A stretch of 64,000 bases of DNA from positions 5,659 through 69,658 of the IMG/VR virus record IMGVR_UViG_3300020389_000255. One strand, 5' to 3'. Positions 12,009-62,749 of the stretch are shown one piece after another. The notes under the pieces were generated by a model, which was not told where the DNA came from, did not search any database, and worked only from the letters and a program-made list of their open reading frames with translations. Source of the DNA: a virus. Numbering within the stretch: position 1 is the stretch's first letter; each line of letters opens with the position of its first letter. Position numbers and translations under genes: made by a program.

Positions 12009-12020
12009 GTTTGTCTACCC

Positions 12021-13517
12021 CTAAAATTCTAAAACTAATCTAATTTTTTGTGTACTTCCTGATTGTCGTATAATAGGAGGAATATTTGCTTTATACAAGA
12101 TGCTCCCCGTATATCTTTTAATTGTAGGTAATGTAACAGCAGAATATTCTGCAACAGCAGTTTCAGTTCCATTAGTCATGTGTAAATCATAATCAGTCGC
12201 TGTTGTACTAAACGCAGAAGTTCCATAACCAATATCAAATGTTACATGAATATCAGGACCAGATCCTCCTTCTACTTCAACCAATCTTCCTTTTGCTATT
12301 TTACCATCACTGGCATCTCTTTGTGTTACTGTAATATCTGTAGAACTTGAACTTGGAGCAACATAACTATTCAACTCTGTTATTGACGTTATATCTCCAG
12401 TTATACTCGTTAAAGTAAATTTATATGTAGGAATTCCAGAAGCACCAGTAAATTTTGTCCCCAAAGCTTCTCCATTTGTCACAGTATAATCATCAAAATT
12501 TGCAGTATATGCATAAGGCGCATAAAGTAATCCAACTTGTCTAAATTGATTCTCAGACATAAATCCAGTTTCACTCTCTGCTAAATCTACTGTTACCATA
12601 AGTCTGGTTGCATTTAATTCATCCAATACATCATAAGAATGTCCTCGAATTGGAGAAATAATAGGTTTCAAAATATTAATCCAAGGAACACTAAGACCCG
12701 AATGTGTAGTCGCCGATGCTACTTTAATCTCATCAATATTAAAATATCCAGAACCTTTATCAACAATCTCAATATAATAATTTCCTGCAGGAATCTTTTT
12801 AATAATTCCTTCAAATCCAGTTCCATCTCCAACCAACTCAACCTTTTTATTTATAAATCCAGACCAAGTTGTAGTAGATGAAAAATTATATGATCCCTTT
12901 ACAGTAAGATGATAAACTTCTCCTGAAACCGCCTTCTCTCTGTTATCTTCGACCATATCTGAAAGAGAAACTGGTAACCATCCTCCTATCGTATCTGTTG
13001 TGGCCGTTGCAAAATTAGCTTCATCAGTAGTTGAAAAAGTAGTCATATGCTTCCAAATATATCCATCATCACTACTAGCTAAATTTTTTGATAAATAATG
13101 TCTTATTGACGTTGGAGTTCCTGCTGTAATATTATTAACTAAAGGTGTTCCAGCTGAATTAGCAGCTATTCCATTATTAGATATACATTTCCAAATATTA
13201 TGATTTCCACTATCATTAGAATAAACATAATATTGTAAACCATCTAAATCAGTATCGTGAGAATATTCTTGATACGTAGTTCCTGCAGTATAATCATATC
13301 TAGGAACAACAAAACTTTTATTAGTTACCTTTTTGCAAAAAACCATATTATTCCATATGGAAATATCATCACTATCAGCATTTGTTGGTGCTGGAGGAGA
13401 TGCCTCATCCGTCCATGGTACTATCCCGCCAACATATAAATATACATCTCCATTATTAATCAATTCTAAATATTTTTTTGCTAATTCTAATTTATGATTA
13501 TTTGTTAATAATGCCAT
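12021..13517 (-). CDS. gp8: Baseplate wedge subunit, T4 gp8-like
   Basis: 'YLYVGGIVPW', 'VVPRYDY', 'IWKCISNNG', 'DGYIWKHM', 'FRQVGLL', C-terminal 'KIRLVLEF'; gene order gp6-gp7-gp8. Confidence 0.85.
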   Translation of the reverse strand: MALLTNNHKLELAKKYLELINNGDVYLYVGGIVPWTDEASPPAPTNADSDDISIWNNMVFCKKVTNKSFVVPRYDYTAGTTYQEYSHDTDLDGLQYYVYSNDSGNHNIWKCISNNGIAANSAGTPLVNNITAGTPTSIRHYLSKNLASSDDGYIWKHMTTFSTTDEANFATATTDTIGGWLPVSLSDMVEDNREKAVSGEVYHLTVKGSYNFSSTTTWSGFINKKVELVGDGTGFEGIIKKIPAGNYYIEIVDKGSGYFNIDEIKVASATTHSGLSVPWINILKPIISPIRGHSYDVLDELNATRLMVTVDLAESETGFMSENQFRQVGLLYAPYAYTANFDDYTVTNGEALGTKFTGASGIPTYKFTLTSITGDITSITELNSYVAPSSSSTDITVTQRDASDGKIAKGRLVEVEGGSGPDIHVTFDIGYGTSAFSTTATDYDLHMTNGTETAVAEYSAVTLPTIKRYTGSILYKANIPPIIRQSGSTQKIRLVLEF

Positions 13518-13526
13518 ATTTTTTTC

Positions 13527-16500
13527 CTATGTCGTTTCTTGTTTAACATCAGCGGCAATTGTATCCTCAACCACTAAGATTGATTTAGTATGACTATCTG
13601 GTTTACCTGCATATACGTATTTAGGGGTACTTCTAAAACCAACAGGATGTATAGTTTTTTCTAACATATCTTTATAAATTTCTGGAGAAATAGAAGATTC
13701 TAATACATATGAAAAATCGTTATAGACATCTGGATCTCGTAATATTTGTGTTCCATCAGTGAATCCTATATTATCAATTGCACGTGGTTTACTCGTAAAA
13801 ATAGGACTAGTAAGTAATGTTCCAGTTGCAGTTGCAGTTGGATAACCAGTTCCATCATTTCCACCAGGTGCTGATTTTGCTCCAAAAGCAATATCATTTC
13901 CAGTATATCCTAACCCAATATTTTTAACTTCAGTCTTAATAATTGACCCTATTTTACTACTATATGAATATAACTTACACATTTTATCAATTTGATCATT
14001 TGCTGTATTATAAGCATATGCCAGTGGAAAATCACTATATCCATCTCCCTCATCTAACAATTCTATTCCAGTAATCTTATTATTAGCATAACTTTCAATA
14101 ATTGCTTGAGGAACTCTCGGCCCTACTGTTTTAATTTCAGACCCATAACAAGTTGCTACTGGTTTAGCAAATTTCTCATCAGTTGCCCCAGTATAACCTA
14201 GATCACTTTCAATCCATCCTTGATCAGTATTTAAATTTCCATTAGTTCCATTATAAATCATTCCTGCAAGCCAGCCCCCAAGATTATTATGTGCATATGA
14301 TAAATGATATTGTTTACCAATATAATTTTTTCCAACAGATATGTTTTCTGATTTAATCTCTCCTGTCAACCACAATCTCCATTTATTAGTAGAAATATTT
14401 TCAAATTTGACAATATGATATAAAGTTCCCGTACTACCTTCTCTTAAAATAGAAAGTCTATCATAATTGGAAAAAACATCTCCACTCGGCCAATGTGTAC
14501 TGAGAGAAGCTCCATAATTTGTTCCTGAATTCCAGGTTGAATTTATTTCAAATTCTGTTGTTATATCAGCATAAGAAGTTAAACTTCCAGTTTTAGTTGG
14601 AGCAAACCCATATATATCAATATAACGAATAGAAAATCCTATTTTATGAGTAGCACCTATTGAACTTCCCTGATTACTAGCATTACTATCAAGTATAATT
14701 GACTCTACAGGACCAGTAGAAACAGCCGACACAGCTACACTTCCTCCAACACCAGATGCATCCAATTCTGCCGCTTCTTCTCCTACTCGATAACCAATTC
14801 CCCCATTGGTGATAGTTGCACCACTTATAACAGGTTCAACTTTTGCACGTAAAACATTTTCAGAATTACTTATTTTAATATCATTACCATCTTTATCCTG
14901 TGCAGTAATTGTTTCAATTGTACTAAATGCTTCTCCAAAAGGACCTTTTTCTATATCATTACGCAATGACAATTCAGCAGATTCAACTAAAATAATATTA
15001 TCAGTATCAGTTATTTTAATAACTGCATTAGTTGATGATCCATTAAGTCCAATATCTCTCTTATCTTCAATAGTAGGTACCAAATAAACTTCTTCTTTGT
15101 TATCCCCACTGCTTCCAGTATCATCTTCTTTATATCCCACTCCTGGATTATTAATAGCAACACTCGTAACTACACCAGAACTATTAACTACATAATCTAA
15201 AGTCAATCCACTAGCAGTGGTTGAAACTTCACCTGTACTTTCCTTAAAGTAAGTAAGTCCTGCAATACCAGTTGCCTGGATTTTATTAACACGCAACTTT
15301 CTTGAATTACCACCAACTGTTTCTGCTGGTAACGTTGAACTACTACGTATAGTCAATTCATCTCCAACTTTATAATCTTTTCCTATTGCGTTCAAAGTAA
15401 AAGAACTAATTCCACCAGATGAAGTTGTTGTATAATCTACAGTAGCATCTGTTCCAATACCACCATATAAATCTTTAGTAGCGGTAACTGAAGCTAATCC
15501 TGAAACTGCAATACGAGTTCCATTTTGTGGATGTGCAACTTGATAATTTCCAATAGATTTTACTTTAAATCCTATACTATCATCTCCTTCATGGGCAATT
15601 CCATCAAGAGGATCTGTTACAGGAGTTACATTATCATCTACTGCAAATCCAGTTGCTAAATCAGCATTAGAAATATTAGAAACTACAACTGTCTTTTTTG
15701 TATGATCTTGTGAAACAACTTTACCAGTTACTGTCCCAAGATTAATTATACTATCTTGTTCAACCATTTCTATCTTTTTTATTTTCCAATCAGGAATTCC
15801 ACCAAAATCTTCACTAGTAAAACGTTGAAAAAGAGGATCTGTACTCCAGTAACCCACGCCACTAACACTATTAATATCAGATAATATAAGTTTTTTAGGT
15901 CCCCATCCTCTAACAGTTCCAGTTGCAAATTTGTTACCACCTAAATGTTGGGTAACTATTTTATCTATTATATCATCATTTAATGGAGTATCATCAACTG
16001 TATCCTGCAACGTTAATATTAATTCTCCATCACCAGCAACATCATCTAAAGTAACCTCAACTCCTCCCAAAGTATAATTAGAATTATGTAATATATTAAC
16101 TTCCTCGTGAACTTGATAATCTGTTCCAGAAGTACTTGGTGTAAGAGTATCGATATCTATTTCATATACATTTTTATTTCTAGCAACATCATAATCTACG
16201 ACTAATCCACTTCCATTTCCATAAGAAGTTATAACAGCTGTTCCATCTGTAGAATATCCACTTCCAACTCCTCTAGCAGCTAAAACTAAATCAAACAGAT
16301 CTACTACTCCATCTTTATTAATATCACCCACTAAATTTGTTCCAGTTTGAGTAAAAGTAGTAGCAATACTAGTTAATGTTGCCAATCCAGTCACTCCACC
16401 AAAACTATTCACAGAAGTAACAGTAACTATTCCATTATTTCCAGAAACACCAGTAAGAACTGCACCAGATGAAAGACCACCTACCTTATAAGCATCTGCA

Positions 16501-19500
16501 ACATTACTTAAAATATATATTTTATCACCGACCAAATAACCAATTCCAGGATCGGAAGCTGTAGCAGAAACTATTCCACCATCTCCCCTTGTTGTATAAT
16601 CTACAATCAATCCACTACCAGTACCATATGTCGTAGCAGAACCAGTTATAGACCCAGCTGTTGTTATACTTTTAACAACAGAAGTTCCATTAAGACCAGT
16701 TACTTCTTTTAACTGGTAATAAATCTTATTTAAAGTCCAATCAGTCCAATCTAAAGTATCAAGTTCAGTTCCAGCTGCATCCTTTTTATAAAATTTAATA
16801 TTACTACCAACACTAAAACTTCCATCTAAAACTTCAATATTAACCTTAGTATATCCAGAAGCGACTGCCATATTGCTTAATACAGCTGTAAGTGTAGCGG
16901 CACCAGTATTACTCCCACCCGTTACCGTTGGAGCAGAATCATATCCACTTCCAAAATTAGTAATTGTTATAGTATCAATAACTCCTCCATCCACAGTATA
17001 GGTTCCCGTTGCAGGCGTAGTTGGAGACCCACCAGTAAATGTTAAACTTCCTGCATCATATCCTGTACCACCAGCTGCAATAGTAACTGAACGTACAATG
17101 GCAGAACTTGTTGAACTTCCTATAACAAAACGTATATAATCATTTGTTTCTGTTCCTCTTATAATAACTGGATCTCCTTCCTCAAACCAAGAATCTCCAA
17201 CAGAATATAAATTTCCAATTGTTATACTACTTGCAGTATTCAGATCAGTAGTACTTTTTACAATTCCACTAACATACTTATAAATCCCAGTAACAGTACT
17301 AGCAGTTCTAGTTCCTCCAACAGTAGTCGTAACTGTTGCACTAGAACCAGCACCTGTCTCAGTAGTTGTACTTTCACCAGTCGTAGCAGAATATCCAGTA
17401 CCACCTGTAGCACCACCAATCAAATCAAAAGTAACTACAGGACCAGTAGAACCTCCACCACTTATAGTAGCAACCGTTAAAATTGCATTAGTTCCCGCAC
17501 CATTATCATCAACACTAACAGTATCATCAACTGCATATCCACTCCCGCCACTTACAACAGTAGCAGTTAAAATTGTATCTGCTTTCAAATTATTTCCGTC
17601 AATTAATGGTGTTGTAGACGTTGTGCTAAAACTACCATTAACGTCAATCACATACAATTTATTATTTGCTGTATCCCATTTACTAATAATTCCACTTGCC
17701 CTACTCGACGAATCTTCTTGAACAACTTCAGCACCTACTGTAAATTCAGTACTATTACCTTCAGTAACATCTAAAATTGTATACGGTTCAACTTCTACAC
17801 TATCCCCAACATCAAAACCAACACCGGTCAAAGAATGAGCATCATTTGATCCATCTGCTGTAATATCAATTTCAGTACCAGCAATTGCATTAGAACTAGA
17901 AGTAGCTAATTGTAAAATATCATCATCTACTTTTATTACATAATAAGAAACACTTGAAGTCAAACCAGTAATTGCAGAAGCACCACTTCTATACACAACT
18001 AAATTCCCAGTTAAAAATCCATGTGCAGTTATTGTAATCTGATCAGTAGACGGATCAACTGCGGTTGCACCATAAAATAATTTTGTTCCGTTAGCAGTAG
18101 AAATAGTTCCTTGTCCAACAATCGCACTAATACTAGCCACAGTAAGTGTTACCGTTGCATTAGTATAACCAGAAGGATCTTGCAATACAATAGTATCACC
18201 AACAGAAAATCCTACACCAGCAGTAACAGGCGTTGCATTGACAGTTACAACAGATGAACTATCAGTTGTAATAGAAAAAGTTGCTCCAGTTCCATAAAGA
18301 CTAGTAGAATATATAGAAACAGTAGTAGCACTTTGACTTGAATACCAAGTACCAGATGTTGCACCTTGTGTGAAAGTGAGAACTCCAGTATAAATTGGAG
18401 TTGAATCATATTCTTCAACTGTATCAATACGAGTAAAAGGTGTAACAACACCAGGAGTATTTTCTAATAATTCAATCCACATAATTTTTGAAGAAGAATC
18501 CCACGATAAAACCTTTCCACGTTTTGTTTGAATTATTTGAGCTGATTGACCTGGATGTTCTACAATACCACCTATAGTAAACCCAGAAGTGTCAACAGTA
18601 TCTAATACCAATCTTTGTGTTCTTTTATATAAATTAGCATTAGTATCATCATAACCAAGAGTTAGAGCTCTTTCATCTCCATAAAATGCAACTTTACCAT
18701 CCGCAGTTTTACTAGTTACAACATCACTAACATTAGTAGTGCCTTGATAAGCATATATTTCATAACCACTTTCAGCATCATAAGTAATGGGAATATTCCA
18801 AAAATCCTTTTCGGGAGGTATTACTAATTCAGCAGGAACAACTTTTTCACTAGGAGAAAATTCTGGAGGTTTTCCAGAATTCCAATATGCAGTAGCTGTA
18901 TCAGTTGGATCTGAAGTAACAACATGATAGATTGATTTACTACCTACAGTAGTAATAGTTTCTATTTTTCCCATTCCTGATTGAATATTCCAACCAGCAA
19001 ATGAATGTTCTGTCGTTTCATCAAAATTCGCCATAGGTAAAAGTACATCACCTTTTGCCCATCCTGATTGGTTGTTTTCAAATAATTCAATTTTTAAAAT
19101 TCGTTCATAACCACTTCCAACAAAAACAGATTTTAATGTAGAAACTACTCCATTAGAATACCGATTATCATATGATTTTAATAATGAAAGTCCATCTTCT
19201 GCTGGATCCAATGAACCAGGGATTTTATAACCAGTTCCCCCACTACCTAAAAGTACAGTTATAACAGGAGCAGTATCTAAGATTTTAATATTAGATTCAT
19301 GGTCACTATTTAAAACATATGCCCTAGCACCAGTTTGACGTCCAACTACATACGTACCAGCAAATTCAGAAAAATTAGCAAGTTTAGATGGTTCAATACT
19401 AGAATCAATTTCTTGAATACGCATCCTAGTTTCAATGTGATATTTATTAGAAGATAATTTAAATATCTCTTTAGCAGGTTCTACAAATTTTGCAGTAACA

Positions 19501-19964
19501 TTATACGCAAATCTAAATAGTATGTCATAACTTAATGCAGTTCCTTTTGATCTATTAAGTAAATTTGCAATCTTTAAAAGTCTATCTCTATCTCCAAGTA
19601 AATCCCCAGTATATCCATATAAAAATTCATTATATAAATTATACTTCAAATCATCCTTTATCAAATCAACATCTCTATATCCAGTAAGACGCATTAATTC
19701 TCCATGCAATCCTGGAACAGATTCATTCACAAATTCTCCAATCATACTAGACTGAGAAATTCCAATACTATTATTTGATTTATCAGCAAGTGTTGCCAAT
19801 ACATTTTGTTCTAAAAATTCATAATATACTTCTAAAAATCTTGTAAAAAGAGTTCTATCAGTTTTTCCCGATAAAGGTTTTTCAAAATCTAGATGTATTG
19901 TCGCTGGTAATTGAGAATAAATGAATTGTGATATAGTACGTGAAATTTTATCTTGATAATTCAT
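13527..19964 (-). CDS. gp7: Baseplate wedge initiator, gp7-like, expanded with GxGY repeats (2145 aa)
   Basis: 'FTRFLEVYYEFLE', 'SKGTALSYDILFR', C-terminal 'YNDFSYVLESS…IHPVGF'; lies between gp6 and gp8. Confidence 0.75.
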   Translation of the reverse strand: MNYQDKISRTISQFIYSQLPATIHLDFEKPLSGKTDRTLFTRFLEVYYEFLEQNVLATLADKSNNSIGISQSSMIGEFVNESVPGLHGELMRLTGYRDVDLIKDDLKYNLYNEFLYGYTGDLLGDRDRLLKIANLLNRSKGTALSYDILFRFAYNVTAKFVEPAKEIFKLSSNKYHIETRMRIQEIDSSIEPSKLANFSEFAGTYVVGRQTGARAYVLNSDHESNIKILDTAPVITVLLGSGGTGYKIPGSLDPAEDGLSLLKSYDNRYSNGVVSTLKSVFVGSGYERILKIELFENNQSGWAKGDVLLPMANFDETTEHSFAGWNIQSGMGKIETITTVGSKSIYHVVTSDPTDTATAYWNSGKPPEFSPSEKVVPAELVIPPEKDFWNIPITYDAESGYEIYAYQGTTNVSDVVTSKTADGKVAFYGDERALTLGYDDTNANLYKRTQRLVLDTVDTSGFTIGGIVEHPGQSAQIIQTKRGKVLSWDSSSKIMWIELLENTPGVVTPFTRIDTVEEYDSTPIYTGVLTFTQGATSGTWYSSQSATTVSIYSTSLYGTGATFSITTDSSSVVTVNATPVTAGVGFSVGDTIVLQDPSGYTNATVTLTVASISAIVGQGTISTANGTKLFYGATAVDPSTDQITITAHGFLTGNLVVYRSGASAITGLTSSVSYYVIKVDDDILQLATSSSNAIAGTEIDITADGSNDAHSLTGVGFDVGDSVEVEPYTILDVTEGNSTEFTVGAEVVQEDSSSRASGIISKWDTANNKLYVIDVNGSFSTTSTTPLIDGNNLKADTILTATVVSGGSGYAVDDTVSVDDNGAGTNAILTVATISGGGSTGPVVTFDLIGGATGGTGYSATTGESTTTETGAGSSATVTTTVGGTRTASTVTGIYKYVSGIVKSTTDLNTASSITIGNLYSVGDSWFEEGDPVIIRGTETNDYIRFVIGSSTSSAIVRSVTIAAGGTGYDAGSLTFTGGSPTTPATGTYTVDGGVIDTITITNFGSGYDSAPTVTGGSNTGAATLTAVLSNMAVASGYTKVNIEVLDGSFSVGSNIKFYKKDAAGTELDTLDWTDWTLNKIYYQLKEVTGLNGTSVVKSITTAGSITGSATTYGTGSGLIVDYTTRGDGGIVSATASDPGIGYLVGDKIYILSNVADAYKVGGLSSGAVLTGVSGNNGIVTVTSVNSFGGVTGLATLTSIATTFTQTGTNLVGDINKDGVVDLFDLVLAARGVGSGYSTDGTAVITSYGNGSGLVVDYDVARNKNVYEIDIDTLTPSTSGTDYQVHEEVNILHNSNYTLGGVEVTLDDVAGDGELILTLQDTVDDTPLNDDIIDKIVTQHLGGNKFATGTVRGWGPKKLILSDINSVSGVGYWSTDPLFQRFTSEDFGGIPDWKIKKIEMVEQDSIINLGTVTGKVVSQDHTKKTVVVSNISNADLATGFAVDDNVTPVTDPLDGIAHEGDDSIGFKVKSIGNYQVAHPQNGTRIAVSGLASVTATKDLYGGIGTDATVDYTTTSSGGISSFTLNAIGKDYKVGDELTIRSSSTLPAETVGGNSRKLRVNKIQATGIAGLTYFKESTGEVSTTASGLTLDYVVNSSGVVTSVAINNPGVGYKEDDTGSSGDNKEEVYLVPTIEDKRDIGLNGSSTNAVIKITDTDNIILVESAELSLRNDIEKGPFGEAFSTIETITAQDKDGNDIKISNSENVLRAKVEPVISGATITNGGIGYRVGEEAAELDASGVGGSVAVSAVSTGPVESIILDSNASNQGSSIGATHKIGFSIRYIDIYGFAPTKTGSLTSYADITTEFEINSTWNSGTNYGASLSTHWPSGDVFSNYDRLSILREGSTGTLYHIVKFENISTNKWRLWLTGEIKSENISVGKNYIGKQYHLSYAHNNLGGWLAGMIYNGTNGNLNTDQGWIESDLGYTGATDEKFAKPVATCYGSEIKTVGPRVPQAIIESYANNKITGIELLDEGDGYSDFPLAYAYNTANDQIDKMCKLYSYSSKIGSIIKTEVKNIGLGYTGNDIAFGAKSAPGGNDGTGYPTATATGTLLTSPIFTSKPRAIDNIGFTDGTQILRDPDVYNDFSYVLESSISPEIYKDMLEKTIHPVGFRSTPKYVYAGKPDSHTKSILVVEDTIAADVKQETT

Positions 19965-30077: not shown

Positions 30078-30115
30078 TATAAATATTAATATACTAGTAG
30101 CTTTATTTATAAATA
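30078..30115. promoter_or_regulatory. T4-type late promoters (TATAAATA), divergent
   Basis: TATAAATA on + at 30078-30085 and 30108-30115, and on - at 30104-30111 (palindrome TATTTATAAATA), between divergent gp48 and gp4. Confidence 0.85.
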
Positions 30116-30120
30116 CTTGT

Positions 30121-30561
30121 ATGGCAAGAACCGGTTTTTATGAATTAAAAAATCCACATAAGTATTTAGGTGTCACCCGAAAGTTGAAGTATCGGTCTAT
30201 GTGGGAAAGAAATATTATGAAGTGGTGTGATATGGAACACAACATCGTGAGATGGTCATATGAACAAATAATTATTCCATATAGAAGTCCAATAGATAAG
30301 AGAAATCATAAATACTATCCAGACTTCTACATAGAACGTTCTAATGAAAAGGGAATTGAAAAATTCTTATTAGAAGTTAAACCTCAAAATCAAGTAATAA
30401 ATCCAGCAAAAAAATCAAAGGCAACTATCTACGAAATGAAAACATATGCAGTCAACGAGGCAAAATGGATCGCCGCATTACGTTTCTGTAAAAAACGAAA
30501 TCTAACTTTCAAGATAATAACTGAATATAATCATCCAGTTCTAAAGAGATATAAAAAATGA
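30121..30561 (+). CDS. gp4: Head completion nuclease gp4 (TnsA-like)
   Basis: 'NPHKYLG…YRSMWE…WCD…WSYE…PYRSPID…HKYYPDF…EVKP…NEAKW'. Confidence 0.92.
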   Translation: MARTGFYELKNPHKYLGVTRKLKYRSMWERNIMKWCDMEHNIVRWSYEQIIIPYRSPIDKRNHKYYPDFYIERSNEKGIEKFLLEVKPQNQVINPAKKSKATIYEMKTYAVNEAKWIAALRFCKKRNLTFKIITEYNHPVLKRYKK

Positions 30562-34677: not shown

Positions 34678-35559
34678 CTACTCACCTGCTAATTTTTTAA
34701 AGTATGACAAAGTTTCTTCTTCAGATCCTTCCTCATAAGTTGACTCAACTGAAATTTCTGGTTCAGCCGCATCAACTGATTCTTCAACTGCCTCAAATTT
34801 AACACGATCCGAATCTGCCTCAAAACCTAAAACACGTTCCATCTTTGTTTTAAGTTCATCAAACGTTTTAAATTGATCTGGCGCAACCAATTCTTGCAAT
34901 GAATACTGCTTATTATACAATTCTTCCAATTTTGCATCATCACCATCAAGAATTGCAGCGGTAGCATCAAATTCTGACCTATCATAATTAACAAACCCAT
35001 CAACAGTACGAATTTTAAGTTTAAAATCAGCACCTTCCCAATAATCAAATGGATTCATTGGAGTTTCATCTTGAAATTCTGGGTTCATTGTATCATTAAT
35101 TTTATCAAATATCCTCTTTCCATAACGATAAATAAAATTCTTACCTTCATTATCAGGATTTGCTGGATCTTTAATTACCATAATATTAGATACATAATTC
35201 AGACGCCGTTTCTGCTTACGTGCTTGTTCTTTGCCTGCCTCTGTACCATTATTCCAAAGACCAGTATTAAATTCACTAACAGGATCTTTCTGATTCAAAG
35301 TTGTGAGTGAATTCTCAATATACCAACCACCAGGACCTTGAAAACCATGTGAAAAAATACGAACCCATGGTAAATCTTCTCCTTCAGTCTGTGGTAGGAA
35401 ACGAATCACAGCATAACCATTACCAGACTTATCACGTTCTGGTTTCCAATAACGATCATCGATATAACTAACCGTTTGTTGTTGGGTTTTTTCTAATTCT
35501 GCGGTGAGATTAGCAATTGTTGCATTACGATTTTGCTTTAAACTTGCAAAAGATGACAT
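34678..35559 (-). CDS. gp32: Single-stranded DNA-binding protein gp32
   Basis: 'DDRYWKPERDKSGNGYAVIRFLP…HGFQGPGGWYIENSLTT', 'NPFDYWEGADFKLK', acidic tail. Confidence 0.96.
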   Translation of the reverse strand: MSSFASLKQNRNATIANLTAELEKTQQQTVSYIDDRYWKPERDKSGNGYAVIRFLPQTEGEDLPWVRIFSHGFQGPGGWYIENSLTTLNQKDPVSEFNTGLWNNGTEAGKEQARKQKRRLNYVSNIMVIKDPANPDNEGKNFIYRYGKRIFDKINDTMNPEFQDETPMNPFDYWEGADFKLKIRTVDGFVNYDRSEFDATAAILDGDDAKLEELYNKQYSLQELVAPDQFKTFDELKTKMERVLGFEADSDRVKFEAVEESVDAAEPEISVESTYEEGSEEETLSYFKKLAGE

Positions 35560-35632: not shown

Positions 35633-35661
35633 ATTATAACATATTTTTCAGGCAATGTCAA
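35633..35661 (-). promoter_or_regulatory. Sigma70-like early promoter for gp32
   Basis: TTGACA-N17-TATAAT with TGn extension. Confidence 0.8.
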
Positions 35662-36235
35662 GCCTATTTTTAATAATTTCCTTATATTTTTTAATATCGA
35701 CACTAAGGAAACTCTTATACTTCTCACAGACTATTCGATTTGCTGGCCATTGATACTCGTCCAACTCCTCATCAAACTGTGGGAAAAAATTTAATATCAT
35801 ATCCATAATGATAAATGTTTCGGGTGAAATAATACCCTGATAAAACAATTTTAATATTGTTGGATCTGCATCTTTCAACCTAAACAATTCATCAAAATGA
35901 CTAACATTATCTAACATAACATCCAATTCCTGTTGGAAATTGTATGTCATACTCTGCATACGGTTCTTCCAAGCAACGAAAATATCATCACCTGTATTTA
36001 CCATATCTTCTAATCTTTTGTTTCCAGAAACAAAATTAGAAACAAAAAACGGTAATAACTGTCCTTCTTTATATCGTTTATTAAACGTTTCAAAGTAACG
36101 AGGAAAACCTCGTCGACCATAAAACTTCTCGGACGATTGTACACGGACACCACCATTGTAACGAAAATAATCGTATCCAGGTTGTTCAAAATGTTGCTTA
36201 ATGCCCATGTACAATTTATAAGTTTTATAACTCAT
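35648..36235 (-). CDS. gp59: Helicase loader gp59
   Basis: 'YKLYMGIKQHF…YDYFRYNG', 'ISPETFII', 'KYKSFL'; gene order gp33-gp59-gp32. Confidence 0.88.
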   Translation of the reverse strand: MSYKTYKLYMGIKQHFEQPGYDYFRYNGGVRVQSSEKFYGRRGFPRYFETFNKRYKEGQLLPFFVSNFVSGNKRLEDMVNTGDDIFVAWKNRMQSMTYNFQQELDVMLDNVSHFDELFRLKDADPTILKLFYQGIISPETFIIMDMILNFFPQFDEELDEYQWPANRIVCEKYKSFLSVDIKKYKEIIKNRLDIA

Positions 36236-36486
36236 AAAGGCAAAGATCCTGTTCTTGGTAAAAAGTTAAATTTAACTGCCTCTGCCTCGACTTTATCTTT
36301 CAATGATTTACTCAATAACTTAGGCACAATATCAGTATCAATATTATGTTTGACACAATAATCTAATATTGCATCCATGTAACCGAGTCCTTCATCTCTA
36401 ACCAAATCACAAATAGCATCAGAAAATTTTCTTGGATTGTGTAAGTTTGTTATTTCCAAGAATTCTTCTTCAGTCAATTTCGCCAT
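36232..36486 (-). CDS. gp33: Late transcription co-activator gp33
   Basis: 'YMDAILDYC…KLLSKSLKDKVEAEAVKFNFLPRT…LPL'. Confidence 0.9.
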   Translation of the reverse strand: MAKLTEEEFLEITNLHNPRKFSDAICDLVRDEGLGYMDAILDYCVKHNIDTDIVPKLLSKSLKDKVEAEAVKFNFLPRTGSLPL

Positions 36487-36502
36487 AAAATATCATATCT
36501 CC

Positions 36503-37366
36503 TTAATGATTTTGTAAAAGTTGGAATATAGTTTGTGACAAGGATTGTGCTTGTGCCATCATTGCCAATGCTGTTTGTTGTTTAATTTGATTCACTGACA
36601 TATCAGTGATTTCTCTCGCCTCATCCAATGCAGTTAAACTATTTCGATTGTTTTCTGTTTGCAAGACCATGCCTTCCAAGTTAGTTATAGTAAAATCAAA
36701 CCTACGGATAGTTGCACCAATTCGTGCTTGATGTTCAATCAATTGGTTAAGTGCAGCGTCTAACGTTTCAACTGCATCAAGTGATTTTGATGTATCATCA
36801 ACTGAACTATCAGAAACAGCAAATAACGTGGGAGTTCCAGCGACCTCTTTAGTCTTTCCCAATACATCAGCAGATGCATCACCCAATGATATATTAATTC
36901 TTTGATCTGGATCGTCATTAATTCCAATTGCAACTATCTTATTAGTAAAATCACCACCTAACAATTCAATACCATTGTATTTGGTTGTAGCAACCACAAA
37001 CTCAGCTTCTTCCAATAGTTGATTATATTCAGCAGAAAGAATCACTCGTTCTTCTTGTGAAGTAGAATCATTTGAAGATTCGACACCAATTTCTCTCAGA
37101 CGTTCAACAATAGTCCTGACTTGTGCCATTCCAGTATCAGCAGTAATAAGCAAATCTTGAGAATTCTTGACATTCCGATTTGCTTGTTCTAATGCAACTA
37201 TCTTATTGGTCATTCGGACGACACTTGCCGAAGCGACACTATCATCAGAAAAATTCGGAATCCGTGAACCACTAGAAATCTTCTCTACATTCTTCTCAAT
37301 ATCAGCTGTTGCTTTTTTGTAATTGTTGTATGCGTTGAGCATTGCACGTTGTAAACCTTGAATCAT
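36503..37366 (-). CDS. fliC: Flagellin (short, D0/D1-type), divergent
   Basis: Flagellin_N: 'EKISSGSRI…DD…LEQANRNVKNSQDLLITAD…VERLREIGVESSN…ER…EYNQL…TKYNGIELLGG'. Flagellin_C: 'ARIGATIRRF…ITNL…QIKQQTALAMMAQA…IFQLL'. AGGAG RBS. Confidence 0.92.
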   Translation of the reverse strand: MIQGLQRAMLNAYNNYKKATADIEKNVEKISSGSRIPNFSDDSVASASVVRMTNKIVALEQANRNVKNSQDLLITADTGMAQVRTIVERLREIGVESSNDSTSQEERVILSAEYNQLLEEAEFVVATTKYNGIELLGGDFTNKIVAIGINDDPDQRINISLGDASADVLGKTKEVAGTPTLFAVSDSSVDDTSKSLDAVETLDAALNQLIEHQARIGATIRRFDFTITNLEGMVLQTENNRNSLTALDEAREITDMSVNQIKQQTALAMMAQAQSLSQTIFQLLQNH

Positions 37367-37394
37367 TTGTTACTCCTATAAAAAAAGTGTATAC

Positions 37395-37595
37395 TTATAT
37401 ATCGTCACATTTCGGAAAAACTTTAGCCTTTTCTTCAAATATTCCACAAGTATATGTATTTCTATCTGGTATGGTAAACAAGCTTCCATCTTTACAAGTT
37501 TTTGTACATTTCGCATTATGTTTCCATTCATTATTAATATACTCATGCACATGTGGAACTATATGCTTACAATTTTTACAAACTTTCTCCATCAC
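37395..37595 (-). CDS. Small Cys-rich, putative Zn-binding protein
   Basis: 'CKNCKH…C..TC…TC..F'. Confidence 0.55.
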   Translation of the reverse strand: MMEKVCKNCKHIVPHVHEYINNEWKHNAKCTKTCKDGSLFTIPDRNTYTCGIFEEKAKVFPKCDDI

Positions 37596-37912: not shown

Positions 37913-38009
37913 TTTATTCCTCCTACAAGTCGTGGTGACTACTTATGTCATATCGGTGAGTCACCTGAACCTTTCCTATATCTGCTTGGGCCATATAGAC
38001 TCTTGGAAA

Positions 38010-38244
38010 TATAGTAGGGGTTTCTGTTGACAGGTACCCCATAGACCCCGGCATTACCTATTAGGCAGCCATTTGTAATTCATAATCGTTTCCAATTATT
38101 AGTTTGCAACTTCTGAGATGTTGCCACTCCAAATAACCTACTCTCCATCATCGTCATACCTGTCGAATCCGTTACGCCCCCATTATGGTGGAGGCGGTGG
38201 GAGTTGAACCCACGTCCAGTGTATCGACAACTTCGTATCATCGG
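38010..38244 (-). ncRNA. ssrA: Circularly permuted (two-piece) tmRNA
   Basis: Acceptor piece ends GACGTGGGTTCAACTCCCACCGCCTCCACCA (CCA end at 38186). After a 4-nt spacer TAAT, the coding piece starts GGGGGCGTAACGGATTCGAC (38181). Acceptor stem has G3-U70. Tag frame 38093-38061 reads GNDYELQMAA-TAA-TAG after ATAATT. Outer ends approximate. Confidence 0.92.
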
Positions 38245-38736
38245 TTAAAAGTCCTTAAGATGTTTTTCTAGACTTGATTGTGTTTCACTACCTTCAAAAC
38301 CAACTCTAACTGAAGGTGAATCTTCAGATTTAAATTCAGGATTTTCCTTTTCTAATTTTTCTAATTCCTTCATCTTCATATCATAATCATAATCAGAAAT
38401 TTCTACATTATCTGGATCTGTATAATATAAATTTTCGTGATATTCTAAATAATTTCTCAACGTAGCAATATCATCTTCTGGATCATTCGTAGGAATCCAT
38501 GTTACCATTGTCGATTTTTCTCCGACATCTACAATACGAGTTCTCCAATCTATGACATTCTCATCAGGTAGGTTATTGGGTTCAGATTGTCTCAATTCGG
38601 TAATGAACGCATTCCAATATTCTCGACCCTTTTCTTCGACAATCCATCTATTCCCAATCAAAGATTCATCTTCAACTTGATCTGGAAATCTATTATAAAC
38701 TTTATACATCATTGATTTATAACTATCAACACTCAT
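38245..38736 (-). CDS. Protein with a stand-alone NAD-dependent DNA ligase domain Ia
   Basis: 'LRNYLEYHENLYYTDPDNVEISDYDYDMKMKELEKLEKENPEFKSEDSPSVRVG' matches the LigA N-terminal subdomain; no KxDG catalytic domain. Confidence 0.8.
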   Translation of the reverse strand: MSVDSYKSMMYKVYNRFPDQVEDESLIGNRWIVEEKGREYWNAFITELRQSEPNNLPDENVIDWRTRIVDVGEKSTMVTWIPTNDPEDDIATLRNYLEYHENLYYTDPDNVEISDYDYDMKMKELEKLEKENPEFKSEDSPSVRVGFEGSETQSSLEKHLKDF

Positions 38737-38768: not shown

Positions 38769-38812
38769 AGTATAACATATTTCTGGCCAATTGTCAAGAG
38801 GAAAGCCATTTT
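38769..38812 (-). promoter_or_regulatory. Sigma70-like early promoter cassette
   Basis: TTGACA-N17-TATACT with upstream AAAATGGCTTT box. Confidence 0.8.
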
Positions 38813-56965: not shown

Positions 56966-57694
56966 TTAAGAAACCATCTTTTTTTTCTTGATGGTCGTTC
57001 TACCTTCAGACAAATGATCACCAGCACGATAAGTTTTTATTTTATGACAATGGGTACATAAAGTTTGATAATTATCAGGATGTTCATGTGATGAATTACC
57101 ATCAATATGATCAACTTGAAGATTAGAAAAATATTCTGCTTTAGTAATTACACCCTGCTCTACAAGGGGCATCCAAGTATCAGAATAATTACATTTTATA
57201 CCCTCAAGATGTTTTATCTTCGTATCTTCATTTTCACAAAGATTTTCTACACAAATTCTATGGATTGATGCTCTATTAAGTTTATAGGTCTCTAAATCAA
57301 TTGAGATTCCCCAAGACGAACTCAGTTCTACACATTCTGTTTTATACTTTTCTTCTAGATCATATGCATTCATGGCCTTAACGTCTGCCACTCCTTTCAT
57401 CTTGACAAACCCACGACGAACCGCTTCCTTTTGTTTCTTTTGTACACTCTTAGAGGACATTCCAGGAGTTTTCCGAGTATTGCATGAAACACAAAGACCA
57501 CCAATAGCCATGCCTTTAACTACATAAGGTCTCCATTTAAACCCTCCATTTCCAACTTGATTTTGTGCTTGACGGACTTTACCAGTAGGAGAGGTTTTTG
57601 CACAACCAGGGTGGGCACAATCAGGTCGATTGGATTCGGTATGTATTATGTTTCTTGATCCTGAAGGGTAGGGGTAAATCATTTTACTGCTCAT
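56966..57694 (-). CDS. HNH endonuclease with N-terminal Zn-finger (probable start 57694)
   Basis: 'LQVDHIDGN…NYQTLCTHCHKIKT'; N-terminal 'RPDCAHPGC…LCVSC'. Confidence 0.85.
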   Translation of the reverse strand: MSSKMIYPYPSGSRNIIHTESNRPDCAHPGCAKTSPTGKVRQAQNQVGNGGFKWRPYVVKGMAIGGLCVSCNTRKTPGMSSKSVQKKQKEAVRRGFVKMKGVADVKAMNAYDLEEKYKTECVELSSSWGISIDLETYKLNRASIHRICVENLCENEDTKIKHLEGIKCNYSDTWMPLVEQGVITKAEYFSNLQVDHIDGNSSHEHPDNYQTLCTHCHKIKTYRAGDHLSEGRTTIKKKKMVS

Positions 57695-57722
57695 TATAAA
57701 ATTCCTTTTCATTTGTTTTTAT

Positions 57723-62326: not shown

Positions 62327-62749
62327 TTACTCCTTACTAAACCATCTATTCATTATATTGGAATTGTAATATTTCCGAGTTCCATTCGGAAATTTCATAT
62401 CCAATACTTCTTCTTTAAATTGATACATTGTTTCTGTATATCCCAAGTCTCCCTTTGTTAAACAAAATTTTAAAATTTCAAATTCAAATTCCCCCTTTCC
62501 TATCCTTTCTATTTCGTTGTTTAACTCATCACAAGATCCAGTATAACTCTTCCAATCAGATTCCTTTTTAACGTGCTTTCGATTTTTACGTCCTTTAACT
62601 TTAATCTTTCTGGTAAAAACAGTTTGTTTTTTTCCAATATATGACCTACCTGTATCTTTACGAGTGATCCTATAAACAAAACCAAAAAAGTTCATTGGAT
62701 TAAAATCTTCATTGAGTAAAGTAGAATTCCAATGACCAAAATCACTCAT
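62327..62749 (-). CDS. GIY-YIG family nuclease-like protein
   Basis: 'FGFVYRIT…GRSYIGKK…ESDWKSYTGS…FEIL…E…YYNSNI'. Confidence 0.85.
   Translation of the reverse strand: MSDFGHWNSTLLNEDFNPMNFFGFVYRITRKDTGRSYIGKKQTVFTRKIKVKGRKNRKHVKKESDWKSYTGSCDELNNEIERIGKGEFEFEILKFCLTKGDLGYTETMYQFKEEVLDMKFPNGTRKYYNSNIMNRWFSKE

What the first reader, a model, noticed from the sequence alone, without database searches (positions are those of the whole stretch)
36503..37399. A flagellin gene embedded in the core of a T4-like phage
Seen: a 287-aa protein with complete Flagellin_N and Flagellin_C domains and almost no variable domain. It sits directly upstream of gp33-gp59-gp32, has its own RBS, and a late-promoter-like TATAAGTA lies at 37392-37399. 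Normally conserved residues have drifted (RINxAxDD to RIPNFSDD; QNR to IRR; SRIxDAD to NSLTALD). No other flagellar gene is present. Inference: it is a repurposed flagellin. It could cap or poison the host filament (saving energy, or excluding flagellotropic phages), titrate FliS/FliW and so the CsrA circuit, or be a virion filament. It implies a flagellated host.
Basis: partly seen in the sequence, partly recalled or inferred. Interest (0 to 1): 0.87.

Follow-up and report, generated by a model that had tools for sequence, protein, structure and literature searches.

The report
Flagellin gene family in marine phages
An uncultured ocean phage related to T4 carries an intact, selected copy of flagellin, the protein that builds bacterial swimming filaments, and the same gene sits at the same spot in many related ocean phages, hinting that these viruses tamper with host motility.

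Summary
Window 36503-37366 (-) encodes a 287-aa protein with Pfam Flagellin_N and Flagellin_C above cut-off. Its predicted fold matches filament flagellins at TM about 0.8. It lies just upstream of gp33-gp59-gp32.

It is neither an assembly chimera nor a lone recent capture. The flagellin-gp33-gp59-gp32 order recurs in 8 of 8 close viral contigs. It also recurs in most contigs of a second flagellin clade only 33-36% identical. A third clade sits in a phage record without gp32 or gp33.

dN/dS is 0.07-0.30. The flagellin's divergence disagrees with that of its neighbours, so the cassette moves between phages.

The backbone matches pelagimyophage Mosig (lysozyme, nuclease, ssrA, gp33). The flagellin is an insert between the tmRNA gene and gp33.

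No FliS, FliW, FlaF or FlbT was found in five partial phage records. Host, expression timing and function remain untested.

Best guess (0.38): export through the host flagellar apparatus and incorporation into the filament. Rivals: an intracellular decoy, or a phage-owned structure. I found no paper describing this. The only phage flagellins found in print belong to temperate enterobacterial phages.

The parts
36503..37366 (-). Phage flagellin gene, 287 aa plus stop. Minimal D0-D1 flagellin.
   Evidence: ORF. Pfam Flagellin_N and Flagellin_C. PDB profile hits to flagellins, best 7.6e-44. AF2 model with mean pLDDT 80.4. Foldseek TM 0.79-0.83 to filament flagellins.
37373..37377 (-). Shine-Dalgarno AGGAG, 6 nt before the ATG
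   Evidence: Sequence. Invariant in 6 of 6 clade-A loci.
37392..37399 (-). TATAAGTA, one mismatch from the T4 late-promoter octamer. It overlaps the stop codon of the upstream 66-aa ORF.
   Evidence: Invariant in 6 of 6 clade-A loci. Not conserved before clade-B genes. Function not shown.
37367..37404 (-). Almost invariant upstream leader (promoter-like octamer, T-run, RBS) that travels with the gene
   Evidence: Alignment A3: nearly every column is identical in 6 of 6 loci whose flanking genes are strongly diverged.
37395..37595 (-). 66-aa Cys-rich ORF just upstream. Present in some but not all clade-A loci.
   Evidence: Homologous 62-aa ORFs lie in L001, L005 and L006. They are absent before the gene in L004 and L007. 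Only a weak zinc-finger hit at E 0.0035.
37970..38292 (-). Permuted two-piece tmRNA gene (ssrA), alphaproteobacterial type, upstream in the same orientation
   Evidence: ARAGORN. Rfam RF04321 102 bits and RF01849 63 bits. Also upstream of the flagellin in L002, L005, L006, L020 and L029.
38769..38797 (-). Sigma-70-like promoter (TTGACA-17-TATACT, 11 of 12, TG). It could drive ssrA, the small ORFs, the flagellin and gp33-gp59.
   Evidence: No terminator-like site on the - strand between it and the flagellin. Consensus match only.
36232..36486 (-). gp33 late-transcription co-activator, 16 nt downstream of the flagellin stop
   Evidence: Pfam PF16805 at 4.1e-17. phrog_254.
35648..36235 (-). gp59 helicase loader
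   Evidence: Pfam T4_Gp59_N and T4_Gp59_C. phrog_269 at 1e-44.
34678..35559 (-). gp32 single-strand DNA-binding protein. It has its own perfect sigma-70-like promoter (35661-35633) and a terminator (34657-34628).
   Evidence: Pfam gp32 at 3.7e-44. phrog_224. Promoter and terminator.

Best explanation
What it is (near certain). The gene is a member of a phage-specific family of minimal flagellins with D0 and D1 domains only. Uncultured marine T4-like myophages with a pelagimyophage-like backbone keep it under purifying selection. In these phages it is an accessory cassette inserted between the phage tmRNA gene and gp33. The cassette is exchanged among phage lineages.

How it most likely works (inferred, not shown). 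The protein is made in the infected cell and recognised by the host flagellar type III export apparatus. It polymerises into or onto the host filament. The phage thereby supplies or re-specifies the main building block of the flagellum while host gene expression is being taken over. The purpose would be to maintain or retune swimming, or to change the filament surface. This would be a lytic-phage counterpart of the flagellar remodelling shown for prophage-encoded FliC_P in Enterobacter. The confidence of 0.38 applies to this mechanism.
For: Identity.
- Both Pfam flagellin domains score above cut-off.
- Flagellin models outscore FlgL models in NCBIfam.
- The phage profile hits solved flagellins at up to 7.6e-44.
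- The AF2 model (pLDDT 80.4) superposes on filament-state flagellins of about the same size: Kurthia 6t17 TMq 0.81, rmsd 3.1; Leptospira 9lrz 0.80; P. aeruginosa core 5wk5 0.81, rmsd 2.7.
- The six columns invariant in 68 phage and cellular flagellins are kept.

Conservation pattern resembles a filament former. The D1 helices and the C-terminal D0 helix are invariant across phage clades that are only 33-39% identical overall. Residues about 140-195, which are surface-exposed in filaments, carry the indels and most of the substitutions.

Selection and age.
- dN/dS is 0.065-0.295 in the 12 of 13 printed pairs that had any divergence.
- GC matches the phage.
- The same locus is occupied in 8 of 8 clade-A loci.
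- The same locus is occupied in 7 of 9 T4-like clade-B/B2 loci examined. In the other 2 the gene lies about 3.5 kb further upstream.

Portability points to a partner outside the virion.
- Flagellin identity to the window is 77-92% in loci whose gp33, gp59 and gp32 are 45-54%, 29-41% and 63-68% identical.
- In L002 the flagellin is 85% identical while the neighbours are 95-98% identical.
- A third clade sits in a 104,851-bp phage record that lacks gp32 and gp33 hits. The four T4-like records all have them.

Position. The gene lies in the replication/early module, co-oriented behind a sigma-70-like promoter and ssrA, with no predicted terminator between.

Precedent. Prophage FliC_P replaces the host flagellin in the filament (bioRxiv 10.1101/2025.07.22.666180, passages read).
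Against: - The host is unknown. The nearest isolates by gp6 (about 38-40% identity) are pelagimyophages and cyanomyophages. Their hosts have no flagella (recalled knowledge, not from a call).
- Relatives of this phage carry curli-pore genes that their hosts lack, so an appendage gene in a phage does not prove that the host has the appendage.
- No cellular flagellin is closer than about 28-37% identity. Compatibility with any host filament is therefore unproven.
- Clades B and C lack four residues at the start of the first D1 helix, together with the RIxxxxDD motif.
- No FliS, FliW, FlaF or FlbT was found in five partial phage records. No repressor of a host flagellin is evident beside the gene.
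- Transcription was not demonstrated.
- A lytic cycle may be too short for filament remodelling to matter (inference).
Confidence: 0.38

Rival explanations
1. Intracellular decoy. The phage flagellin stays in the cytoplasm. There it occupies the host proteins that sense or chaperone flagellin: FliS, FliW with CsrA, or FlaF/FlbT in Alphaproteobacteria. This shuts down or jams the host's costly flagellin synthesis and export.
For: The C-terminal D0 helix is the segment bound by FliS in known complexes (recalled knowledge). It is the most conserved stretch across all phage clades. Solved flagellin-FliS complexes are among the sequence and fold matches (5maw, 6gow). The gene sits in an early/takeover-type context. 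The cassette's portability between phage backbones fits a host-directed function.
Against: A decoy needs only the binding segment. Yet both D1 helices and the full length are conserved, and the universal flagellin invariants are kept. No partner could be named because the host is unknown. No binding test was run.
Confidence: 0.2
2. Phage-owned structure. The flagellin fold has been exapted as a self-assembling coiled-coil part of the virion (a fibre, whisker or decoration) or of another phage-made structure. It would be independent of any host flagellum, possibly in a host that has none.
For: A one-mismatch T4 late-promoter octamer with good geometry lies before the gene and is invariant in clade A. 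Single deviations occur among T4 late promoters (PMC2988020, passages read). The nearest cultured relatives infect hosts without flagella (plus recalled knowledge). The family is long separated from all cellular flagellins: motif scans of 185,579 species genomes gave 2 relatives among 396 pattern matches, both on short phage-like MAG contigs.
Against: The gene is in the replication module, not the structural module that fills window 1-32,650. The octamer is not conserved before clade-B genes. The gene moves between phage backbones, including one without gp32 or gp33. That is less expected for a part that must fit other virion proteins. No viral protein in BFVD resembles it (best TMq 0.38).
Confidence: 0.2
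3. No adaptive role. The gene is a hitch-hiking or decaying host gene, or an artefact of assembly or binning.
For: IMG/VR labels the record 'provirus' with CheckV completeness 31%. Two relatives lie in MAG bins.
Against: - The frame is intact in every locus examined, and dN/dS is well below 1.
- The junctions are bridged in other runs. X6 has a contig over 36923-37680, across the 5' junction. X20 has one over 36384-36605, across the flagellin/gp33 junction.
- 8 + 1 + 20 + 63 loci were returned from viral and metagenome collections, with some contigs duplicated between collections.
- The two MAGs have no other flagellin, and one is archaeal, so those contigs are mis-binned phage DNA.
Confidence: 0.03

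Closest known systems
Bacterial minimal flagellins (D0-D1 only), e.g. Kurthia, Leptospira FlaB, Caulobacter FljK, Bacillus Hag
   Same: Same two Pfam domains and the same length class (about 270-300 aa). The predicted fold has TM about 0.8. The universal invariant residues are kept.
   Different: It is encoded by a lytic-type phage, with no flagellar genes nearby. It is at most about 37% identical to any cellular flagellin. It carries phage-specific signatures: RF(D/E)FT, DEAxE and AQAQ(Q/S)LS in place of QNRF, DxDxAxE and AQAN. No NCBIfam flagellin model reaches its cut-off.
Prophage-encoded flagellin FliC_P with the RNA-guided repressor TldR (temperate Enterobacter phage)
   Same: A phage carries its own flagellin. 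There it is shown to replace the host subunit in the filament.
   Different: That system is in a temperate phage. It has large outer domains and an adjacent TldR-guide RNA cassette that silences host fliC. Here the phage is T4-like, the flagellin has no outer domain, the neighbours are a 66-aa ORF and gp33, and no such repressor is seen beside it. The paper calls FliC_P the first known prophage-encoded flagellin.
Pelagimyophage / Melnitz-type marine myophages (Mosig EXVC030M, HTVC008M, Melnitz)
   Same: Same local gene order: GH108 lysozyme, PD-(D/E)XK nuclease, two-piece ssrA, gp33, gp59, gp32. A phage tmRNA directly upstream of gp33 is described for Melnitz (PMC9004378, passages read). They also carry appendage-related genes of unclear role (curli CsgGF).
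   Different: These isolates have no flagellin. tblastn of 50,697 phage records gave 4 weak hits, none T4-like. In Mosig, ssrA abuts gp33. gp6 is only about 38-40% identical. No CsgG was found in the five partial records searched here.
FlgL (hook-filament junction protein 3)
   Same: It shares the flagellin N-terminal helical region. The TIGR02550 model gives 82.7 bits.
   Different: That score is below the model's cut-off of 127.2, and flagellin models score higher (up to 130 bits).
Cell-surface flagellin homologue of Sphingomonas (PDB 3k8v, 3k8w, 2zbi)
   Same: It is a flagellin-family protein reported in a role other than propulsion. That role is recalled; the PDB title is 'bacterial cell-surface flagellin'. 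It appears among the sequence and fold matches.
   Different: It is a cellular protein with an extra domain. The match is lower than to filament flagellins (TMq 0.69).

Membership tests
Flagellin (Pfam PF00669 + PF00700) | N-terminal helical region above the gathering score | tested here: met
   84.8 bits against 26.6, residues 8-140 on profile positions 6-138 of 139
Flagellin (Pfam PF00669 + PF00700) | C-terminal helical region above the gathering score | tested here: met
   51.9 bits against 23, residues 200-284 on profile positions 2-86 of 86
Flagellin (Pfam PF00669 + PF00700) | D0/D1 helical hairpin fold | tested here: met
   Predicted only. AF2 pLDDT 80.4, with helices 2-32, 45-98, 104-127 and 192-286. 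Foldseek TMq 0.79-0.83 to filament flagellins.
Flagellin (Pfam PF00669 + PF00700) | Residues invariant across flagellins are kept | tested here: met
   G33, A76, E113, R222, D248 and Q272 are invariant in a 68-sequence alignment of phage and cellular flagellins. Several classical motif positions differ.
Flagellin (Pfam PF00669 + PF00700) | Secreted by the flagellar type III system and polymerised into a filament | not testable with these tools
   Needs expression, secretion and microscopy assays
Flagellin (Pfam PF00669 + PF00700) | Encoded together with flagellar chaperone or regulator genes | tested here: not met
   No FliS, FliW, FlaF or FlbT in 5 of 5 partial phage records. FliD, FlaG and hook genes were not searched.
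Named flagellin subfamilies of NCBIfam (FliC/FljB, Hag, LafA, polar flagellins) | Score above the curated cut-off of a subfamily or equivalog model | tested here: not met
   Best is 130.3 bits against a cut-off of 531. None of the 25 listed models reaches its cut-off.
FlgL (TIGR02550) | Score above the equivalog cut-off | tested here: not met
   82.7 bits against 127.2
Prophage FliC_P-TldR flagellar remodelling system | Adjacent TnpB-derived TldR gene with guide RNA | tested here: not met
   The flanking ORFs are gp33 (84 aa) and small ORFs of 47-66 aa. No large ORF lies beside the gene. No dedicated TldR profile was run.
Prophage FliC_P-TldR flagellar remodelling system | Temperate phage | tested here: inconclusive
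   The backbone is T4-like, a group known as lytic (recalled). The IMG/VR label is 'provirus', but the 5.8 kb beyond the window is one giant phage-type ORF, not host DNA. Integrase was not searched.
T4-like marine myophage (pelagimyophage-like backbone) | gp32, gp59, gp33, baseplate gp6/gp5/gp48/gp25-type genes, RNase H | tested here: met
   The local order matches Mosig.

The most novel reading that the evidence does not exclude
These phages infect abundant streamlined ocean bacteria that have no flagella. The flagellin has been exapted over a long time into a phage-owned self-assembling filament: a virion fibre, or a structure built in or on the infected cell. This would be a second life for the flagellin fold outside motility. 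It would parallel the unexplained curli-pore genes of their pelagimyophage relatives.
Probability: 0.15. Interest if true: 0.92.

Novelty: new variant of a known kind. Interest (0 to 1): 0.78.

Why it matters
Flagellin is among the most expensive and most recognisable bacterial proteins. Until the TldR work, phages were known only to use flagella as receptors, not to encode flagellin. Here an entire family of flagellins is maintained, diversified and traded among uncultured marine myophages, which turn up in marine, seawater and vent metagenomes of 15 studies.

If the protein enters the host filament, ocean viruses would be directly controlling bacterial swimming and chemotaxis during infection. 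That would be a new kind of auxiliary gene, bearing on particle colonisation and carbon flow.

If the hosts have no flagella, it would be a striking exaptation of the flagellin fold.

Either way the gene is a clean marker for a phage group whose host is unknown. The question can be settled with ordinary expression, secretion and virion-proteomics experiments.

Tried and rejected
- Maximum-likelihood tree and AU test of phage against cellular flagellins. The script machine failed and was lost. Monophyly of the phage family therefore rests on shared motifs and search ranks, not on a tree.
- Late-promoter reading. TATAAGTA (7 found, 4.5 expected) and TATAAATA (11 found, 10.1 expected) are not enriched in the window. 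No common motif precedes clade-B genes. Timing is left open.
- Expression. The one run on record as RNA (X19) gave a single contig on gp59 only. X20, whose RNA label is a guess, gave a 222-nt contig across the flagellin/gp33 junction. Both are contigs and may hold DNA, so there is no evidence for or against transcription.
- Depth differences between genes are not used.
- Host from the tmRNA.
  - blastn against phage records found only 41 nt of Mosig ssrA.
  - A search of 401 genomes of one phylum returned only the universal 32-nt tRNA-like arm in 180 genomes, plus the mis-binned phage contig. No taxon labels were given.
  - The alpha-type Rfam match is a weak hint only. Melnitz carries an alpha-type tmRNA but infects a gammaproteobacterium.
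- Host from bins. The two MAG contigs (Pacearchaeota, Chromatiales) are short and mutually inconsistent, and neither MAG has another flagellin. Rejected as mis-binning.
- Donor lineage. The best cellular match (P0124, 34% identity) belongs to a cluster named Candidatus Poribacteria in 6 rows. It is too distant to name a donor.
- psbA, CsgG and Gp23 profile searches of partial records found nothing. The Gp23 search matched nowhere, so it is uninformative.
- The long metagenome contigs (148,284 and 141,376 bp) could not be searched whole.
- The first AF2 model, from 16 sequences, was poor (pLDDT 63) and was replaced.
- Complex prediction was not used. The host partner is unknown, and a homo-oligomer pass would not separate the hypotheses.
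- Supplementary files of the pelagimyophage and Melnitz papers could not be seen. Their gene tables might mention flagellin-like genes.
Full report
**Observation.** On the minus strand, window 36503-37366 is an open frame of 287 codons plus stop.
- Pfam places Flagellin_N on residues 8-140 (84.8 bits, cut-off 26.6).
- Pfam places Flagellin_C on residues 200-284 (51.9 bits, cut-off 23).
- PHROGs knows it only as families of unknown function.
- In NCBIfam, flagellin models score best (up to 130 bits) and FlgL models lower. No model reaches its curated cut-off.
- A profile of 16 phage homologues hits solved flagellins down to 7.6e-44.
- An AlphaFold2 model built on 68 sequences has mean pLDDT 80.4. 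It shows the four long flagellin helices and a small beta insert.
- The model superposes on filament-state flagellins of the same size at TM about 0.8.
- Nothing comparable exists in the BFVD library of viral proteins (best TMq 0.38).
- AGGAG lies 6 nt before the ATG, and TATAAGTA lies at 37392-37399.
- gp33, gp59 and gp32 follow immediately on the same strand.

**The phage.** The window lies in a 69,658-bp IMG/VR record, labelled 'provirus', with CheckV completeness 31%.
- It carries T4-type baseplate and tail genes, cobS/cobT-like genes, RNase H, a helicase and homing-endonuclease genes.
- GC is 0.33-0.36 throughout.
- Its gp6 is only about 38-40% identical to those of pelagimyophages (HTVC008M, Mosig) and cyanomyophages. 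It is thus a separate, uncultured lineage of marine T4-like phages.
- A permuted two-piece tmRNA gene lies about 600 nt upstream of the flagellin: RF04321 at 102 bits and alpha_tmRNA at 63 bits.
- The local order is GH108 lysozyme, PD-(D/E)XK nuclease, ssrA, gp33, gp59, gp32. This is the order annotated in Pelagibacter phage Mosig, where ssrA abuts gp33. The same arrangement is described for the OM43 phage Melnitz (PMC9004378, passages read).

The flagellin is thus an insert between ssrA and gp33 in an otherwise familiar backbone.

**Not a chimera, not a lone capture.**
- A word-indexed search of 5.8 billion proteins listed 120 clusters. Of these, 106 are 70-93% identical to the query and nearly all are 285-287 aa. 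The other 14 are at most 32% identical.
- Eight viral contigs carry close homologues. All eight show flagellin, gp33, gp59, gp32 in that order, one with a 247-aa ORF inserted.
- A scan of metagenome contigs with family motifs returned 63 loci. Four are on contigs of 72,844-148,284 bp. Some duplicate the viral contigs.
- Parts of the stretch are held by 20 public runs from 15 studies, all marine, seawater or vent metagenomes.
- In runs other than the likely source, contigs bridge both junctions of the gene.

**An old phage family.**
- An exhaustive phmmer search of 1.84 billion representatives found 9 proteins at E <= 1e-30.
- Four are the query's own cluster and its fragments.
- P0125 and P0126 led straight back to viral contigs.
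- P0124 belongs to a cellular cluster named Candidatus Poribacteria in 6 rows.
- P0127 and P0128 are unplaced.
- The P0126 clade (33-36% identical to the window protein) sits immediately upstream of gp33 in 7 of 9 T4-like loci examined. In the other two it lies a few genes further upstream. One further locus was checked by eye and agrees.
- The tmRNA gene also precedes it in several loci.
- The P0125 clade (38-40% identical) lies next to thyX, a dNMP kinase, an Hsp20-like gene, a DNA ligase and nucleases. Its 104,851-bp record has no gp32 or gp33 hit, although the four T4-like records all have both.
- All phage clades share substitutions that set them apart from the cellular consensus: RF(D/E)FT, DEAxE and AQAQ(Q/S)LS.
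- Scanning one genome from each of 185,579 species for two of these motifs gave 396 pattern matches. Only 2 were relatives. Both lie on short contigs of MAGs that hold no other flagellin, and one MAG is archaeal. These are mis-binned phage DNA.

I could not build a tree because the script machine was lost. Single origin is therefore inferred, not tested.

**Selection and mobility.** Nei-Gojobori estimates were printed for 13 of the 36 possible pairs among nine clade-A genes. They give dN/dS of 0.065-0.295 for the 12 pairs with any divergence.

The gene's divergence disagrees with that of its neighbours:

| Loci compared with the window | Flagellin identity | Flagellin dS | gp33 identity | gp59 identity | gp32 identity | Neighbour dS |
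|---|---|---|---|---|---|---|
| L001, L003-L008 | 77-92% | 0.33-0.76 | 45-54% | 29-41% | 63-68% | gp32: 1.3-1.9 |
| L002 | 85% | 0.35 | 95-98% (all three) | | | 0.08-0.11 (all three) |

- The roughly 38 nt before the ATG are almost invariant in 6 of 6 loci.
- The simplest reading is a cassette, with its own leader, that recombines among diverged phages at one locus.
- This resembles what is known for photosynthesis genes of cyanophages (recalled knowledge).
- GC of the gene (0.37) is close to its surroundings.

**What it probably does.** The following is shown:
- a full-length, foldable, minimal flagellin;
- strong conservation of the D1 helices and the C-terminal D0 helix;
- a variable middle segment that carries the indels;
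- purifying selection;
- portability between unrelated phage backbones;
- a position in the replication/early module, behind a near-consensus sigma-70-like promoter and ssrA, with no predicted terminator between.

The rest is inferred. A protein that stays exchangeable between phages probably works with host parts rather than with virion parts. A protein that keeps every feature of a filament subunit probably still assembles.

I therefore favour, at 0.38, export through the host flagellar apparatus and incorporation into the host filament during infection. This would be the lytic analogue of prophage FliC_P, which replaces the host subunit in Enterobacter.

The rivals are:
- a cytoplasmic decoy for FliS, FliW or FlaF-type partners (0.20);
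- a phage-owned structure independent of host flagella (0.20);
- no adaptive role (0.03).

The remainder is left for something not thought of.

**Against all host-flagellum readings.**
- The host is unknown.
- The closest cultured relatives infect bacteria without flagella (recalled knowledge).
- Those relatives already carry curli-pore genes that their hosts lack.
- No FliS, FliW, FlaF or FlbT gene was found in five partial phage records.
- The late-promoter resemblance is one mismatch from consensus, is not enriched in the window, and is not shared by the other clade. Single deviations do occur among T4 late promoters (PMC2988020, passages read).
- Transcription was not shown.

**Novelty.** Full-text searches for flagellin together with T4-like, marine phage, pelagimyophage or viral-contig terms found no description of such genes.
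- The pelagimyophage paper has no occurrence of 'flagell' in its main text (PMC7029224), and neither has the Melnitz paper.
- 'Phage-encoded flagellin' occurs in 5 papers, of which 3 were listed (the others are copies). All come from the TldR work on temperate enterobacterial phages. That work calls FliC_P the first known prophage-encoded flagellin.
- tblastn of 50,697 phage records gave 4 weak hits, none in a T4-like phage.

I class the finding as a new variant of a known kind: a phage-encoded flagellin, but in lytic-type marine myophages, as an old phage-specific family without a TldR partner.

Noticed in passing
window 37970-38292 (-): Complete permuted two-piece tmRNA gene of alphaproteobacterial type (ARAGORN tag GNDYELQMAA; RF04321 102 bits, RF01849 63 bits). 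The 'ORFs' at 38080-38241 and 37923-38054 therefore probably do not code. This is known for Melnitz-like phages, but no glutamine riboswitch reached the gathering score here. Its core at 38186-38218 is a depth hot spot with loose ends on both sides in three runs.
   Followed up: partly
window 1-19964 (-) and L033 1-5800: Three giant ORFs lie beside the baseplate wedge genes: 2389 aa, 2145 aa, and one open at the window edge. The last continues for at least 1933 more codons in the record, so it exceeds 3500 aa. They are presumably fibre or host-recognition proteins. Not analysed.
   Followed up: no
window 38245-38736 (-): A 163-aa ORF whose C-terminal half matches only the N-terminal Ia domain of NAD-dependent DNA ligase (Nlig-Ia, 26.7 bits, just under the cut-off of 27; phrog_3869). 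It is conserved next to the tmRNA in related loci and preceded by a near-perfect sigma-70-like promoter.
   Followed up: no
window 30121-30561 (+), 56966-57712 (-), 62327-62749 (-): Mobile-endonuclease-type genes: a TnsA-like endonuclease in the divergent baseplate intergenic region, an HNH endonuclease, and a SegE-type GIY-YIG endonuclease. They are possible vehicles for the cassette exchange seen at the flagellin locus.
   Followed up: no
window 30078-30115: Three exact TATAAATA octamers on both strands lie in the short divergent region between the gp48-like gene (-) and the + strand operon. These are the best candidates for true T4-type late promoters in the window.
   Followed up: no
L031 and L032 (MAG contigs NZCQ01000013.1, PBYE01000017.1): Short phage contigs carrying the phage-type flagellin are binned into a Pacearchaeota MAG and a Chromatiales MAG that serve as species representatives. 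Each MAG has no other flagellin, so they are likely binning contaminants.
   Followed up: partly
L056 7475-7891 (-), and L010 and L058 contexts: The clade-C flagellin lies in a different large phage, beside an Hsp20/alpha-crystallin-like gene (judged by eye), thyX, a NifU-like protein, a ThaI-like endonuclease and an ATP-dependent DNA ligase. That phage type was not identified.
   Followed up: partly
G000 record: IMG/VR classes this T4-like record as 'provirus', yet the sequence beyond the window is a giant phage-type ORF rather than host DNA. The label looks like a classifier artefact.
   Followed up: partly
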